A stretch of 20,000 nucleotides of DNA from IMG/VR virus record IMGVR_UViG_3300030106_004658. One strand, written 5' to 3'. The DNA is from an uncultured virus (IMG/VR IMGVR_UViG_3300030106_004658). Lineage: Duplodnaviria > Heunggongvirae > Uroviricota > Caudoviricetes > Crassvirales. Below the pieces are notes generated by a model. The model made no database searches, was not told the DNA's origin, and was given only the letters and a program-made list of their open reading frames with translations. A program made the position numbers and the translations under genes. Every line of letters begins with the position of its first letter. Position 1 is the stretch's first letter. Shown here piece after piece: positions 1,690 through 14,773 of this stretch.

Positions 1690-1717
1690 ATTATCACCTA
1701 CTATTGTTTATTTTTAG
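1690..1717 (-). promoter_or_regulatory. Putative class-2 phage promoter upstream of groEL
   Basis: CTAAAAA-N12-GGTGATAAT on the minus strand, same spacing as 4444-4471 and 13421-13448; overlaps the small palindrome GTAGGT-N6-ACCTAC (1684-1701). Confidence 0.45.
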
Positions 1718-1940
1718 CCTTTTGCAATCTTACTAAGGCTGCTTGATTTTCTTGTAAAGCTTTTTTAAATTTATTTTGTATTTCTGTAGAATATTTAGGA
1801 TTATTCATATCCTCTTTTAACCGCTTTATGTCGTGTTTTATTTCCTCGATTTGAGTTCTTCCAGAAACCTCATCTCCATCAGTTGTAGAATTGTCTTGTC
1901 TCTGTGTAAATGCAGAGAACCCCTTCATTTTAAAAGCCAC
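1701..1940 (-). CDS. Small coiled-coil protein with N-terminal MAFKMK motif
   Basis: 79 aa, GTG start, MAFKMKGFSAF; helical C-terminal half. Confidence 0.8.
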   Translation of the reverse strand: MAFKMKGFSAFTQRQDNSTTDGDEVSGRTQIEEIKHDIKRLKEDMNNPKYSTEIQNKFKKALQENQAALVRLQKAKNKQ

Positions 1941-2203
1941 TATACGAAAGAATCTAATTCATCACCAGACATACCAAAATCCTTCATAAGTTTATTAGCT
2001 ATTGATTTACCTCTATTAGAGTTCATTGGATCTTTCATTTTAGAAAGTTGATCTAGTAGTTGCTTTTTAATTTTAGGATCTTTTTTCATAAAACCTGAGC
2101 CTTGTTTTGGCATAACACCTTGTTCTTCCATCATATTTTCATCGGTACCAGTGCCTGCTCCAAAATTCATTCCACCTAGTTTAAAACCACTTCTTTTTTT
2201 CAT
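1940..2203 (-). CDS. Small protein with variant motif (MKKRSGFKLGG)
   Basis: 87 aa, tightly coupled to its neighbours; GFKL variant of the shared N-terminal motif. Confidence 0.75.
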   Translation of the reverse strand: MKKRSGFKLGGMNFGAGTGTDENMMEEQGVMPKQGSGFMKKDPKIKKQLLDQLSKMKDPMNSNRGKSIANKLMKDFGMSGDELDSFV

Positions 2204-2219
2204 TGTATTTTTTTTTGAA

Positions 2220-2594
2220 TTATTTTACTCTTTTTTCAGCTTCTATTGCTTCTGCTTCCCAAGGGTGGTTAGCATGACCTTCTGGCCAACGACCATTTGG
2301 ACCGTCAATAACGTCAACACCATTTTCTGTTTTTCTAGAATATATATTACCTTCCCACATAACCCAGTTATCTCCATAAGCCGCTCTACCTTCTTCCATT
2401 TGTTTTATATGTGCCATTTCATGAGCAATAACTCTTCTACCTAACCTACTATTCATATCTATAGACGGATCTACATCAATAGACCCGTCCATATTAGCTT
2501 GAGCTATAGCACCTTCTCCAGGATCACCTCTTTTAATTAAGACATTGTTGGAGTTTTTTATATTTCTTTTTTCACTTCCTAGTTTAAACGCCAT
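2220..2594 (-). CDS. Putative zincin-like metallopeptidase (HEXXH) with MAFKL N-terminus
   Basis: 124 aa; VIAHEMAHIKQ and a downstream PWEAEA third-ligand-like motif. Confidence 0.7.
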   Translation of the reverse strand: MAFKLGSEKRNIKNSNNVLIKRGDPGEGAIAQANMDGSIDVDPSIDMNSRLGRRVIAHEMAHIKQMEEGRAAYGDNWVMWEGNIYSRKTENGVDVIDGPNGRWPEGHANHPWEAEAIEAEKRVK

Positions 2595-2598
2595 AATA

Positions 2599-2814
2599 CT
2601 ACTCTTCTTCTTCGTCGTCTTTATCTTTATTTATAAAATCAGTTGCAAGATCGGATGCCTCATCACCTATCTTACTATACATGTCTACTTTAGCCTTATC
2701 ACCTATTCCAAAAACAGTTTCAGTTGCTTCTTTTTGACCTCTAATTAAGGCTTCATCTGCTTCTGTTTTCTTAAAAGGAAAACTACTTTTGTTATATTTC
2801 ATTTTAAAGGCCAT
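2599..2814 (-). CDS. Small protein with MAFKMK motif and acidic tail
   Basis: 71 aa, MAFKMKYNKSSFPFKK...DKDDEEEE. Confidence 0.8.
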   Translation of the reverse strand: MAFKMKYNKSSFPFKKTEADEALIRGQKEATETVFGIGDKAKVDMYSKIGDEASDLATDFINKDKDDEEEE

Positions 2815-2816
2815 AA

Positions 2817-3053
2817 TTATCTACTTTGCTTTGCCATGTCTTCACCTTCTTTAGTAACACGATTTGAGTACATGAAGTCTTTACTAGGTTCCATTGATGT
2901 AAATTGATCTTTAACTTTTTTAACAATATTTTTAACTCTTTGTTTAAACTTACTAGTTTTTTTAACGCTTCCTTGCTGTTCTTCTTTTTTAAACGCTCCT
3001 GGAAAATTTTTTTTCATAGGCCCTTCTTTGCCTGCTTTCATTTTAAATGCCAT
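2817..3053 (-). CDS. Small basic protein with MAFKMK motif
   Basis: 78 aa, Lys-rich, MAFKMKAGKEGPMKKNFPGAFKK. Confidence 0.8.
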   Translation of the reverse strand: MAFKMKAGKEGPMKKNFPGAFKKEEQQGSVKKTSKFKQRVKNIVKKVKDQFTSMEPSKDFMYSNRVTKEGEDMAKQSR

Positions 3054-4764: not shown

Positions 4765-4983
4765 ATGACATTAAAAAGATTTGTAATAAGAAAGTCCTTA
4801 ATAGGCAAGAACGAAGTAATAACATTCACAAACAAAAAAGGTGAAGTAGTAAAGTATAATCACGACGATGTGTATAACACTCACAAAGAAAGATTCGAAA
4901 GCATGAACTGTTTCGCTAAATACAAGTCGTATACTAATACTAATTGTATGCCAGCTTTCTGCCGAGATATGAAGATTCAGTAG
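4765..4983 (+). CDS. Early hypothetical protein (paralog A)
   Basis: 72 aa; aligns end to end with 5603..5833. Confidence 0.85.
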   Translation: MTLKRFVIRKSLIGKNEVITFTNKKGEVVKYNHDDVYNTHKERFESMNCFAKYKSYTNTNCMPAFCRDMKIQ

Positions 4984-5602: not shown

Positions 5603-5833
5603 ATGGCAAATGTAATAAATAGTAAGAGATTTGTAGTAAGACAATCTCTAGTCGGTAAAAACACGACTATAAATGTAGAGTTCAAAAATGGTAAAACAGC
5701 AACTTATAATCATGACAAAGTGTTCTCACTAATGAAAGACAAGTTAGAATCAATGGCATGTTGGGCAAAGTACAAGTCGTACACATCAAGCAATAACCTA
5801 CCATTATCGGTAAGAAATGAAGATATTGCCTAA
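5603..5833 (+). CDS. Early hypothetical protein (paralog B)
   Basis: 76 aa; KRFV.R.SL.GKN, YNHD.V and ESM.C.AKYKSYT shared with 4765..4983. Confidence 0.85.
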   Translation: MANVINSKRFVVRQSLVGKNTTINVEFKNGKTATYNHDKVFSLMKDKLESMACWAKYKSYTSSNNLPLSVRNEDIA

Positions 5834-6006: not shown

Positions 6007-6145
6007 GTTATATAAACTGTTAGCGAAGTGCTTATTAACTAACAGTAACTTGAGACGTAGTTCCACTTGTTTAGCGTCTTATAAAAAATGCGAATGAGTA
6101 AGGTAATAAAGGTTTAAGTGGGTTCGATTCCCACCATTACCACTA
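6005..6145 (+). ncRNA. Putative structured RNA ending in a 41-nt tRNA-like minihelix
   Basis: Stems ACTGTTAG/CTAACAGT (6016-23/6039-46), GAGACG/CGTCTT (6052-57/6075-80); acceptor-like GGTAAT/ATTACC (6102-07/6136-41) and T-arm GTGGG-TTCGATT-CCCAC (6118-6134). Confidence 0.65.
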
Positions 6146-6893: not shown

Positions 6894-6967
6894 GGTTGAG
6901 TAGCTTAACTGGATAAAGCAACGCCCTTCTAAGGCGTAGAGTGTGAGTTCGAATCTCACCTCAATCA
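6894..6967 (+). tRNA. tRNA-Arg(UCU), CCA not encoded
   Basis: Acceptor GGTTGAG/CTCAATC, D-arm GCTT/AAGC with TGG loop, anticodon arm ACGCC-CTTCTAA-GGCGT, T-arm GTGAG-TTCGAAT-CTCAC. Confidence 0.95.
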
Positions 6968-6999
6968 CAATATAAATACGAATAGTGTAAGATAATATA
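6966..6999 (+). promoter_or_regulatory. 34-bp class-1 promoter-like repeat, copy 5
   Basis: CACA-ATA-TAAATACGA-ATAGTGTAA-GATAATATA; overlaps the tRNA 3' end. Confidence 0.8.
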
Positions 7000-8339: not shown

Positions 8340-8373
8340 CACAAATTAAATACGATTACTCACAGATAATATA
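8340..8373 (+). promoter_or_regulatory. 34-bp class-1 promoter-like repeat, copy 6
   Basis: CACA-AAT-TAAATACGA-TTACTCACA-GATAATATA. Confidence 0.8.
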
Positions 8374-8376
8374 AAT

Positions 8377-8586
8377 ATGAAATGTAAATGTAATAAAATA
8401 ATACCAGAAGGCCGCCTGCGATTAGGCTTTAGAGTTTGTGTAGATTGCTCGACTGTTTCGAAATACGGTTGTGCTCCAGTCATAAACCACAAGACGGGTA
8501 ATACTATCCAGATAATGTCTAGTGAAGATGCAGCGAAAGTCGCTAAATTATTCCGCAGGAGAGGCTATGGTACAATGCTAAGATAA
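8377..8586 (+). CDS. DksA/TraR-type C4 zinc-finger protein
   Basis: CKC...IPEGRL...CVDC matches the DksA/TraR finger pattern C..C...IP..RL.......C..C. Confidence 0.65.
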   Translation: MKCKCNKIIPEGRLRLGFRVCVDCSTVSKYGCAPVINHKTGNTIQIMSSEDAAKVAKLFRRRGYGTMLR

Positions 8587-8587
8587 T

Positions 8588-8965
8588 ATGATAAAAGAAG
8601 AATTAACAAGAGAAATAGCTAAAATACAATTAGCTTTAGAATCTCACGAAGAACAAGTGAAAGATCTATCACATGATTTAAAAACTGCTAAGCAGAGATT
8701 AAAAGATGTTGATAAGCCAAAATTAACTAACAAGCAATTTACTCAAATACATGATGCTATTGAGAGTGCAATAGAAAACTTTGATTTTAGCAATTGCAAC
8801 AACTATGAGCCAGAGTTTGAGATGGACTACGATGGAAAAGTTGGATTAGCACACATAACTTTTGATGGTGCTGATGATTTAGCTAACGAAGTAATAGAAA
8901 GTGTTGAGAAGTTATTTGGCGTAACTGATGAAAGTGACGACGACAACGAGTCGCCAAGCGAATAA
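8588..8965 (+). CDS. Hypothetical protein, N-terminal coiled coil and acidic C-terminus
   Basis: 125 aa ORF in operon context. Confidence 0.8.
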   Translation: MIKEELTREIAKIQLALESHEEQVKDLSHDLKTAKQRLKDVDKPKLTNKQFTQIHDAIESAIENFDFSNCNNYEPEFEMDYDGKVGLAHITFDGADDLANEVIESVEKLFGVTDESDDDNESPSE

Positions 8966-9394
8966 TCAGTTATAAATGCGAGTCAAGGGCGCGTGAAAAA
9001 TCGCTGCAGCTCGCTAAAATGCGGAGTAAGTTTCTAGAGCCCTCCGCAGATGTCTCCAGAGATAATAACCTTTACGTGGTTGGAGATATAAGTAAGAAGT
9101 GTTTAGATACAACTGAAACTAATAATTATCAAAACCCTGTATAGGGTGAGTATAAAGCGACAATTCACGAAAATGTGCACAGCTTTATATTCAAAATATG
9201 TGAACTAGGTGGTTCAATGTAGGATAAAGCGATTCGAGGTGATGGGAGCGAAATCTCCACGCTAAACATAAAACTAGAACCTTGATAGTACCACACCTAC
9301 GGTTCACAACAGCTTGAAATGGACAAAACAGGGTGATACGCACCGCGTAATTTGCCTGACGAGGTGGGAGGTTCGATTCCTCCCCGAGCTGCTA
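8966..9394 (+). ncRNA. Putative ~430-nt multi-domain structured RNA with a 3' tRNA-like domain
   Basis: Long gap in a gene-dense region, GC-richer than its flanks, with about ten nested helices (see findings) and a terminal GGAGG-TTCGATT-CCTCC T-arm plus CAGCTTG/CGAGCTG acceptor-like stem. Confidence 0.75.
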
Positions 9395-9395
9395 A

Positions 9396-9429
9396 CACAA
9401 ACTAAATACGAATAAAGTAAGATAATATA
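9396..9429 (+). promoter_or_regulatory. 34-bp class-1 promoter-like repeat, copy 7
   Basis: CACA-AAC-TAAATACGA-ATAAAGTAA-GATAATATA. Confidence 0.8.
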
Positions 9430-13473: not shown

Positions 13474-14049
13474 ATGAAGAATTTAAATAAAAAATTAGCA
13501 GTTATACAAACTGANNNNNNNNNNACTGAATTAAAAGCAAAAAAATCTTCGTATAATTCTTTCGGGAAGTATTATTTCCGAAAGGCCGAAGATATACTCG
13601 AGGCAGTAAAGCCTTTCTTACTTAGAGAAGGTGTGTCGGTAAGAGTCGATGAAGAATTGATTCACGATGCACCACCTACAATTAAATCAACAGCCACCAT
13701 TTCTGATGGCGAAAATTCAATCACAGCTACAGCAATAGTCGGTGTAGACCTTAATCAAAAAGGTATGCAAACGGCTCAACAATTTGGAGCAGCTTCATCT
13801 TACGGGAAAAAGTATGCGTTAGGCAACTTATTTCTAATTGATGATACAGCTGATGCTGACTCGACTAATAGTCATGGGAAAGCTAGCCAAATTGTAAACA
13901 AACATGTTAAAGCTTCTATAATGACTGAAGATCAACTAAAGAAAGCTGTTGAATTTGTAAAAGGAGGAGGAGCTATTACTGCTATCGAGTCTAAATATAC
14001 CGTTACACCTGAACAAATGAAAGCATTAAAAAACGGAGTTAATGGATAA
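13474..14049 (+). CDS. erf: ERF-family single-strand annealing protein
   Basis: LKAKKSSYNSFGKYYFRKAEDILEAVKP and QQFGAASSYGKKYALGNLFLIDDTADAD; the gap is flanked by a duplicated ACTGA, so it is probably an unmerged overlap. Confidence 0.88.
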   Translation: MKNLNKKLAVIQTXXXXTELKAKKSSYNSFGKYYFRKAEDILEAVKPFLLREGVSVRVDEELIHDAPPTIKSTATISDGENSITATAIVGVDLNQKGMQTAQQFGAASSYGKKYALGNLFLIDDTADADSTNSHGKASQIVNKHVKASIMTEDQLKKAVEFVKGGGAITAIESKYTVTPEQMKALKNGVNG

Positions 14050-14773
14050 AAAAATAATTGAAAAATTAAGACAGGACGAACATTACTATGGAGACTATGG
14101 CAAACAGTTCTTAAGTAATTCAGATATATCTATATTACTTAAAAATCCTAGATTATTAAGAGAAGATAAACCGAAGACATCAGCAATGGTGATAGGAGGC
14201 TATTTTCACACTGCAATATTAGAACCTGATAAACTTGAAAGTTTTAAGATTATCAAATCTAGCACTAGGAATACTAAGCAATATAAAGAGATGTCTGGAG
14301 GAGAGATTTGTTTGCTTCAACACGAGGTTGATAAAATAGAATTAATGAGAGAGGCTGTTATGGATAACAAGATATGTAGGGAACTTATAGATGGTCTTGG
14401 TACCGTCGAATATGAGATACCTGGAGTTACTAAAATACATGGGAATATGTGGAAAGGTAAAGCAGATATTGTTAACCATGATGAAAGACTTATAATAGAT
14501 CTTAAAACAACTAGTGATATTGATAGGTTTAGATGGTCTGCTTCTAAGTTTAACTATGATAGTCAAGCTTATATCTATAGCAACCTATTTGGTTATGAGA
14601 TGTTGTTTATGGTAATAGACAAAGAAACACTCCAAATAGGTTTGTTCGACTGTTCTCCAGATTTTTATTCTTCTGGAGAGGACAAAGTGCGTAAAGCTAC
14701 TGACGCGTACGAGCTGTTTTATAAGACAGATGATTTTGACAGTAAGCAATATTTAATAACTAAAACCTTATAA
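14042..14773 (+). CDS. PD-(D/E)XK exonuclease (RecE/exonuclease VIII-like)
   Basis: LSNSDI, GGYFHTAILEP, KGKADIV...IIDLKTT, YDSQAYIY; adjacent to erf. Confidence 0.85.
   Translation: MDKKIIEKLRQDEHYYGDYGKQFLSNSDISILLKNPRLLREDKPKTSAMVIGGYFHTAILEPDKLESFKIIKSSTRNTKQYKEMSGGEICLLQHEVDKIELMREAVMDNKICRELIDGLGTVEYEIPGVTKIHGNMWKGKADIVNHDERLIIDLKTTSDIDRFRWSASKFNYDSQAYIYSNLFGYEMLFMVIDKETLQIGLFDCSPDFYSSGEDKVRKATDAYELFYKTDDFDSKQYLITKTL

What the first reader, a model, noticed from the sequence alone, without database searches (positions are those of the whole stretch)
8966..9394. Large (~430 nt) multi-domain non-coding RNA with a tRNA-like 3' domain
Seen, by manual pairing. Domain 1 is closed by TCAGTT/AACTGA (8966-71/9111-16) and encloses three hairpins: GCGAGT/GCTCGC (8978/9009), TGCGGAG/CTCCGCA (9020/9042) and ATGTCTCCA/TGGAGATAT (9050/9081). 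Next come ACCCT-GTAT-AGGGT (9134-47) and the 11-bp GAGTATAAAGC/GCTTTATATTC (9148/9182). Domain 3 is closed by TGTGAAC-TAGGTG/CACCTA-cg-GTTCACA (9199-9211/9294-9308), with inner GGTTC/GAACC, AGCG/CGCT and a GGAG/CTCC hairpin. The tRNA-like end has CAGCTTG/CGAGCTG (9310/9385), a stemless AATGGA D-loop-like segment, a CAGG..TACGC-ACC-GCGTA..CCTG arm instead of an anticodon arm, and T-arm GGAGG-TTCGATT-CCTCC. G-U pairs fit the plus-strand RNA. I recognise no known family. Inference: a new large phage ncRNA (or a tandem set of RNAs) matured by tRNA-processing enzymes.
Basis: partly seen in the sequence, partly recalled or inferred. Interest (0 to 1): 0.85.

Follow-up and report, generated by a model that had tools for sequence, protein, structure and literature searches.

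The report
Shuffled RNA modules on tRNA-like scaffolds
This stretch of an ocean virus genome is a mix-and-match string of small folded RNA parts ending in a tRNA-shaped holder with a swappable insert, belonging to an RNA family found in no library searched and possibly serving as a kit of decoys against the host.

Summary
The structure is real, but it is not one fixed 430-nt RNA. Window 8963-9392, in a marine phage with flavobacterial-phage affinities, is one version of a combinatorial array of folded modules ending in a tRNA-like domain. About 115 related loci were found. The 43 distinct complete arrays run 197-815 nt. The tRNA-like frame covaries at 12 of 16 pairs and carries 64 different inserts where the anticodon arm belongs. 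The pseudoknotted core is also compensated. Its two slots show no linkage (p 0.52), and array content is unrelated to flanking-gene identity. Modules nest inside each other. A second small array lies at 6012-6145. Five Rfam scans found no family. Transcription is not shown (RNA-library contigs only). Best guess (0.4): an early transcript's tail, cut out by host tRNA-processing enzymes into stable small RNAs that act as a recombination-shuffled decoy library. The scan noted comparable swappable RNA-module arrays in other phages before; none matched this sequence.

The parts
8347..8371 (+). Promoter-like repeat heading the unit that ends in the array (one of 7 copies in the window, all on +)
   Evidence: promoter role is inferred
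8377..8586 (+). 69-aa cysteine-rich ORF, no Pfam or PHROG family; used as the synteny anchor
8588..8965 (+). 125-aa ORF directly upstream; replaced by other ORFs in some relatives (L018, L277, L296)
8963..8976 (+). Conserved A/U-rich 5' leader overlapping the stop codon; marks the array start in 51 loci
8978..9014 (+). Module J: closed hairpin with internal loop; also found nested inside the tRNA-like insert of L287 and L396
9020..9048 (+). Module L: hairpin (z -4.0)
9052..9130 (+). Module M: outer stem; inner stem 9067-70/9078-81 (compensated in 9 of 35 copies); bulged-G-type motif flanking swappable slot 9095-9114 (22 fillings); possible long-range pair 9061-66/9125-30 (no double change seen)
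   Evidence: the motif name is recalled
9135..9192 (+). Module N: two hairpins (5 bp and 11 bp)
9200..9307 (+). Core C: P1 9200-06/9301-07, P2 9209-13/9290-94, pseudoknot 9219-23/9296-9300, slot 1 9214-18, slot 2 9230-89; minimal form about 56 nt
9310..9392 (+). tRNA-like scaffold T: acceptor 9310-16/9385-91, stemless D-like loop 9317-22, swappable insert 9323-54, 3-bp variable-arm-like hairpin 9355-64, 6-bp T arm 9366-84, unpaired C at 9392
9403..9427 (+). Next promoter-like repeat, the downstream boundary
6012..6145 (+). Second, smaller array: hairpins plus an acceptor/T-arm minihelix (6102-6145) with its own swappable slot; shares a module with first arrays of other phages
   Evidence: read by eye
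6894..6968 (+). True tRNA-Arg gene in the same kind of position (after an ORF, before a promoter-like repeat)
13474..14049 (+). ERF-family single-strand annealing protein; candidate engine of shuffling
   Evidence: E 1e-26 (scanned from 13522, past an N run)
14042..14773 (+). DUF3799 PD-(D/E)XK-like protein beside ERF
   Evidence: E 9.6e-22

Best explanation
SHOWN: a locus at the 3' end of an ORF cassette holding a variable string of independently folded RNA modules. Modules contain slots that take other hairpins or whole modules, and the string usually ends in a tRNA-like scaffold whose anticodon-arm position holds a swappable cargo. Frames are kept by compensatory change while the cargo reassorts. 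INFERRED: (a) it is transcribed from the promoter-like repeat at 8347 as the tail of an early mRNA; (b) host tRNA-processing enzymes read the acceptor/T-arm stack and elbow, cut before 9310 and trim after 9392, and A-rich linkers are cut, giving stable small RNAs; (c) ERF-type recombination between co-infecting phages swaps cargo through the short conserved frames; (d) the modules are decoys or aptamers for host RNA-binding proteins, most likely anti-phage RNases and tRNA-attacking enzymes, so different host strains select different kits. My odds: acts as RNA 0.85; tRNA-type processing 0.6; decoy role 0.4.
For: T frame: 97.9% of cells paired, 12 of 16 pairs changed on both sides, 0 of 500 shuffles as high, slid controls at most 49% (model-independent alignment). 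64 distinct inserts in 30 families among 98 parsed loci. Pseudoknot 100% paired with 3 of 5 pairs compensated. 51 family combinations among 62 distinct core+T units; linkage p 0.52, 0.20 and 0.026; four-gamete quartets in all three slot pairs. Array content is independent of flank identity, rho 0.016 over 780 pairs. Nested modules in L277, L287, L302 and L311. All 34 model hits are on the gene-sense strand. Array lengths fall evenly in the three frames, 14/12/17. The arrays sit in the same kind of position as the tRNA gene. ERF and DUF3799 are in the window. An engineered tRNA scaffold works the same way (PMC3753655, passages). Phage RNA mimics and tRNAs counter defences elsewhere (PMC3475682 and 10.1101/2023.03.15.532788, search listings only).
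Against: No transcription, ends or strand shown: the four RNA runs are assembled contigs of relatives and may hold DNA. No module matches a known antitoxin, CRISPR repeat, riboswitch or rRNA family in Rfam, so no decoy target is named. The neighbouring small ORFs are also swapped, so mosaicism is region-wide and need not mean selection on the RNAs. The core's compensations come from only two subtype switches, and P2 hardly varies. In 2 of 10 sampled arrays z was above -2. One slot pair shows weak linkage (p 0.026). The host is inferred only from primase hits.
Confidence: 0.4

Rival explanations
1. A cis-acting 3' shield and processing signal: stacked hairpins and a tRNA-like end stabilise or terminate the early mRNA; which hairpins are present is neutral.
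For: The array lies at the end of an ORF unit before the next promoter-like repeat. No intrinsic terminator is predicted there (0 found). Any module can be missing.
Against: A pseudoknot, recurrent internal-loop motifs and nested slots are kept beyond what a nuclease block needs. Further modules and scaffolds follow T in several loci. The second array sits between two ORFs with no promoter-like repeat after it.
Confidence: 0.2
2. One large RNA that folds or multimerises as a unit, like GOLLD or ROOL, with optional peripheral domains.
For: Module order is largely kept, and core then T is the usual 3' end. [quoted passage not shown]
Against: No helix joining different modules survived comparison. 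Length varies 197-815 nt. The core is absent, duplicated or placed after T in some loci. No GOLLD or ROOL hit in five Rfam scans.
Confidence: 0.12
3. T is a working tRNA or tmRNA mimic that acts at the ribosome (charged, or trapping SmpB or a synthetase); the other modules are passengers.
For: A stemless D-like loop and acceptor/T stack resemble the tmRNA tRNA-like domain. Weak tmRNA matches fall on the T arm and on the minihelix. T is the most constant part.
Against: The third acceptor pair is never the alanine wobble pair (G-C in 73 of 73; G-C or A-U). There is no tag frame and no encoded 3' tail. Acceptor sequences vary freely, which fixed amino-acid identity would not allow.
Confidence: 0.1
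4. A set of unknown ribozymes or small-molecule-binding RNAs (for example sponges for defence signals), with T only as a handle.
For: The core is a compact pseudoknotted fold with invariant unpaired bases. Its helix order resembles the P1/P2/P4 order of RNase P RNA (recalled).
Against: No ribozyme or riboswitch family hit in Rfam. Many modules are simple hairpins.
Confidence: 0.1
5. Selfish or neutral DNA hairpins or recombination sites (REP- or attC-like) that pile up in an intergenic gap.
For: Duplicated modules (L017, L293) and region-wide cassette swapping.
Against: Strict gene-sense orientation (34 of 34 hits), tRNA T- and D-loop signatures, and a pseudoknot. In 5 near-complete genomes the T-loop motif occurs only 2-4 times each. 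No transposase or integrase family among the 20 window proteins scanned.
Confidence: 0.08

Closest known systems
Engineered tRNA scaffold (PMC3753655; passages read)
   Same: Acceptor and T arm kept, foreign RNA inserted in place of the anticodon stem-loop; used to obtain precise processing and stability.
   Different: Natural, phage-borne, lacks a D stem, has a 6-bp T stem and a variable-arm-like hairpin, and carries at least 30 insert families.
GOLLD and ROOL RNAs (PMC12286853; passages read)
   Same: Phage-encoded ornate RNAs near tRNA genes, function unknown; GOLLD has a conserved 3' and a variable 5' part and sometimes holds tRNAs.
   Different: No Rfam match, no fixed overall fold, 197-815 nt, every module optional, slots reassort freely.
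Phage T4 RNAC and RNAD (PMC9697503; passages read)
   Same: Small phage RNAs of unknown function; their place in the tRNA cluster is recalled.
   Different: Those are two fixed RNAs classed as late; here dozens of interchangeable, nested modules lie in an apparently early region.
tRNA-like domain of tmRNA (Rfam RF00023, RF04321)
   Same: Acceptor/T stack with a stemless D-like loop.
   Different: No tag frame, no alanine wobble pair, no encoded 3' tail; scores far below the family threshold.
Pseudo-ToxI repeats of phage phiTE (PMC3475682; search listing and start of abstract only; details recalled)
   Same: Phage non-coding RNA that would act as a decoy against a host defence.
   Different: Those are tandem near-copies of one antitoxin unit; here the units are unrelated to each other and no target is known.

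Membership tests
tmRNA | Acceptor/T stack with stemless D loop | tested here: met
tmRNA | Alanine identity wobble at the third acceptor pair | tested here: not met
   G-C in 73 of 73; G-C 10, A-U 2
tmRNA | mRNA-like domain with tag frame and pseudoknots between D loop and T arm | tested here: not met
   insert is 11-82 nt and unconserved; ARAGORN calls no tmRNA
tmRNA | Rfam gathering score 47 | tested here: not met
   best 18.2 bits, on the minihelix; 9.9 on T
tRNA (class II, long variable arm) | 7-bp acceptor, T arm with canonical loop, variable-arm hairpin | tested here: met
   the T stem is 6 bp in most copies
tRNA (class II, long variable arm) | D stem and a conserved anticodon stem-loop | tested here: not met
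   64 inserts in 30 families; not called by ARAGORN or RF00005
tRNA (class II, long variable arm) | Processing, tail addition and charging | not testable with these tools
   needs bench work
RNase P RNA | P1/P2/P4-type helix order with a pseudoknot next to P1 | tested here: inconclusive
   the core has this order; the reference topology is recalled
RNase P RNA | Conserved catalytic-core sequence and Rfam match | tested here: not met
   no hit; minimal core is 56 nt
GOLLD / ROOL | Match to the family covariance models | tested here: not met
GOLLD / ROOL | One conserved overall fold that forms RNA cages | tested here: inconclusive
   a conserved overall fold is not met; cage formation cannot be tested here
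Type III antitoxin mimic (pseudo-ToxI) | Tandem near-identical pseudoknot repeats | tested here: not met
   modules are unrelated; tandem duplicates are rare
Type III antitoxin mimic (pseudo-ToxI) | Neutralises a host toxin | not testable with these tools
   host not cultured or named
Bacterial Y RNA (YrlA) | Rfam match, and a Ro60-like gene nearby | tested here: not met
   no Rfam hit; no such family among the 20 window proteins scanned; whole genomes not scanned for it

The most novel reading that the evidence does not exclude
A natural combinatorial aptamer library. Marine phages keep tRNA-like and pseudoknot scaffolds with nested expansion slots, shuffle the cargo by recombination, and release the products through host tRNA processing as RNA inhibitors tuned to each host's defence and RNA-binding proteins. 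It would be an RNA-only counterpart of an anti-defence gene island.
Probability: 0.3. Interest if true: 0.93.

Novelty: categorically new. Interest (0 to 1): 0.8.

Why it matters
Known phage RNAs of this size (GOLLD, ROOL, T4 RNAC/RNAD) are fixed molecules. Here the conserved thing is a grammar of scaffolds and slots, with a natural version of the laboratory tRNA scaffold. It supplies dozens of new structured RNAs with built-in controls: the same frame with different cargo, and the same cargo in different frames. That makes the open question of what phage tRNA-region RNAs do directly testable. If the modules are decoys, RNA-based counter-defence would be far broader than the few known cases. 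'Categorically new' refers to the architecture. Single modules may be among the candidates of PMC10690425, whose alignment files could not be read.

Tried and rejected
Rfam: nothing at threshold on any array in the window or 45 loci; only true tRNAs and sub-threshold tmRNA fragments. Isolate phages: no match for the array, a divergent array or the anchor protein. GTDB genomes: 0 matches to the T pattern; the anchor protein gave 2 MAG contigs of unrelated phyla, probably mis-binned and not used for host assignment. No whole genome is held. Short 14-15-base scans were mostly chance: 5 of 80 and 7 of 80 examined were real, all on contigs already found; 1 of 3. Of 25 matches, 17 were dropped as unrelated; L309 was dropped. 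Sigma-70 promoter and terminator scans were at chance level. RNA runs: all shares were 0.17 or less; depth was not used to rank expression, and uncovered bins were not read as absence. Hammerhead, twister, pistol, HDV-like and c-di-GMP resemblances were considered from recall and dropped for lack of the core motifs and of Rfam hits. One search timed out and was redone. Literature: searches returned no paper; searches returned none whose listing describes this element; PMC12191101 passages held nothing relevant. PMC10690425: 3 of 6 supplementary files searched without a hit; 2 were unreadable, 1 was not searched and 3 more are too large. Most subscription journals and bioRxiv supplements are not covered.

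Full report
Setting. The window is phage DNA. It holds groEL, a sigma factor and a primase/helicase; a ligase, thymidylate synthase, an ERF annealing protein and DUF3799; and one tRNA-Arg. The primase's best isolate matches are mostly phages of Cellulophaga, Tenacibaculum and Flavobacterium at 32-43% identity, so a flavobacterial host is inferred, not shown. The finding lies in a run of small unknown ORFs headed by seven copies of a promoter-like repeat. It fills the gap between the ORF ending at 8965 and the repeat at 9403.

Observation. All 15 named helices pair. The fold beats 100 of 100 shuffles, z -4.1. A coding control reached z -3.9 on its minus strand, so I relied on homologs. No plus-strand ORF of 50 aa or more overlaps the element, and Rfam and ARAGORN see nothing there.

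Homologs. A pattern for the 3' end gave 25 IMG/VR matches, 8 of them real, and 98 metagenome matches, 97 kept (18 have short flanks; many come from overlapping marine sample sets, so they are not independent). The upstream 69-aa gene fetched 51 syntenic loci. A covariance model of the 3' domain hit 18 of these at E of 0.001 or less, 10 of them on new contigs, and all 34 hits up to E 1 were on the gene-sense strand. Many of the other loci end before the array position. There was no match in isolate phages or GTDB.

Anatomy. Annotating 106 loci with 24 hand-made module patterns (some misses) shows strings such as J-L-M-N-C-T here, K-N-O-C-T in L024 and P-M-I-O-C-T in L274. L024's contig has a 100% identical 69-aa protein (L371), yet it shares only N and the C and T frames with this window. 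Of 51 arrays with the 5' leader, 43 are distinct and run 197-815 nt (the longest may be overestimated). Order is mostly kept, but the core is absent in L270 and L321, follows T in L399 and is doubled in L385.

The tRNA-like domain (9310-9392) parsed in 98 of 107 loci; the 9 misses are 8 cut records and one chimera. All 16 pairs are standard in 73 of 73 distinct copies. The anticodon-arm position holds 64 different inserts of 11-82 nt in 30 families, most folding as hairpins. Among close copies only 1 pair shows a double change. In a model-independent alignment of 12 of the 19 strong hits (5 near-identical and 2 out-of-register hits left out), 97.9% of cells pair and 12 of 16 pairs change on both sides. 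No shuffle of 500 reaches this, and slid controls pair at most 49%. The model-fitted alignment gives 15 of 16 but includes weak hits and one true tRNA. The layout is a 7-bp acceptor, a stemless D-like loop, the cargo, a 3-bp hairpin, a 6-bp T arm and an unpaired C, with no encoded 3' tail.

The core (9200-9307) parsed in 84 of 106 loci, with 29 fillings of slot 1 (some mis-cut) and 59 of slot 2. In 15 cores chosen for short inserts, the pseudoknot is 100% paired with 3 of 5 pairs compensated. These changes come from only two subtype switches. P2 is nearly invariant and so uninformative, and P1 is 88% paired because one subtype is out of register. Module M parsed in 35 loci with 22 slot fillings and one compensated inner pair; its long-range pairing is intact in 32, wobbled in 2 and broken in 1, so it is unproven. 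Modules also appear inside other modules' slots: H in M (L277), part of O in M (L302), J in T (L287, L396) and part of the core in T (L311).

Shuffling. Among 62 distinct core+T units there are 51 family combinations. Slot 1 versus slot 2 gives p 0.52, slot 2 versus the T insert p 0.20, and slot 1 versus the T insert p 0.026. All four gametes occur for each pair, although some slots are only about 10-35 nt apart. Across 40 arrays, shared array content is unrelated to identity of the 300 nt upstream (rho 0.016, p 0.66). At 80-90% flank identity a median of 32% of the array aligns, against 89% in the 4 pairs above 90%. Neighbouring ORF cassettes are swapped too, so recombination is region-wide. 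ERF and DUF3799 are the likely engine (inference).

Expression. Fifteen of 24 listed runs are RNA on record, all with small shares. In 4 of 4 runs laid, from 4 studies, contigs of relatives cover parts of the array, and several loose ends are other known modules. These are contigs and may include DNA. Transcription, strand and ends are not shown.

How it most likely works. See Best explanation: an early-mRNA tail, matured through tRNA mimicry into small stable RNAs that serve as a shuffled decoy kit (0.4). Rivals are a cis 3' shield (0.2), one large RNA (0.12), a ribosome-level mimic (0.1), ribozymes or ligand sponges (0.1) and DNA-level hairpins (0.08).

Comparison. It works like an engineered tRNA scaffold (PMC3753655, passages) and sits like GOLLD, ROOL or T4's RNAC/RNAD (PMC12286853 and PMC9697503, passages). 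It fails membership of tmRNA, tRNA, RNase P RNA, GOLLD/ROOL, Y RNA and type III antitoxin arrays on tested features. Ten library searches found no description. The library lacks most subscription journals, and the alignment files of PMC10690425 could not be read, so single modules may already be catalogued. Unchecked notes of this scan describe comparable swappable RNA-module arrays in other phages. None shared sequence with this array, and the one look-alike window concerned the promoter repeat. I had formed the modular reading before seeing them; they also pointed to T4 RNAC/RNAD and to an integron-like rival.

Verdict. This is a real, strongly covarying family, undescribed in the sources searched, with an unusual nested, freely reassorting architecture. 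Its function is unproven. Interest 0.8.

Noticed in passing
window 6012-6145; L353, L356, L357, L359, L361, L362, L366, L001: A second array with one or two acceptor/T-arm minihelices, each with a swappable slot; one cargo also occurs as a free module in the first array of L307.
   Followed up: partly
   Followed up: partly
L298, L317, L321, L328, L342, downstream of T: A second scaffold paralog follows the first, with a different acceptor and the same layout.
   Followed up: partly
L290, L294, downstream of T: An ordinary tRNA gene (glycine-like by eye, not run through ARAGORN) occupies the position after T.
   Followed up: no
L273, T domain: Apparent recombinant: the 5' acceptor strand of the second scaffold type with the 3' strand of the first; 6 of 7 pairs still form (by eye).
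   Followed up: no
L385 4945-5780: A long array with two tandem cores, a scaffold, more modules and a further T-arm-like element.
   Followed up: partly
L402, L404, L407, L408, L410 (just before the 69-aa gene); L400, L401, L405, L409: Two more divergent scaffold types at other positions of the early region, found only weakly by the model (E 2e-4 to 0.84).
   Followed up: partly
L022 ~1370-1540; L010 ~445-510; L021; L019 ~1430-1540: Unrelated phages with tRNA-like frames that share the variable-arm hairpin; L022 holds a large insert with a second T arm.
   Followed up: no
window 4765-4983 and 5603-5833: Two paralogous ORFs of about 75 aa, each behind a promoter-like repeat.
   Followed up: no
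window 1701-3053, minus strand: Four short ORFs beginning with nearly the same five residues, upstream of groEL.
   Followed up: no
window ~11165, ~13510, ~19665: Short runs of N interrupt the ligase, ERF and last ORF, so the ligase split is an assembly gap.
   Followed up: no
loci downstream of T: Small ORF cassettes of about 35-70 aa are also present or absent between T and the next promoter-like repeat.
   Followed up: no
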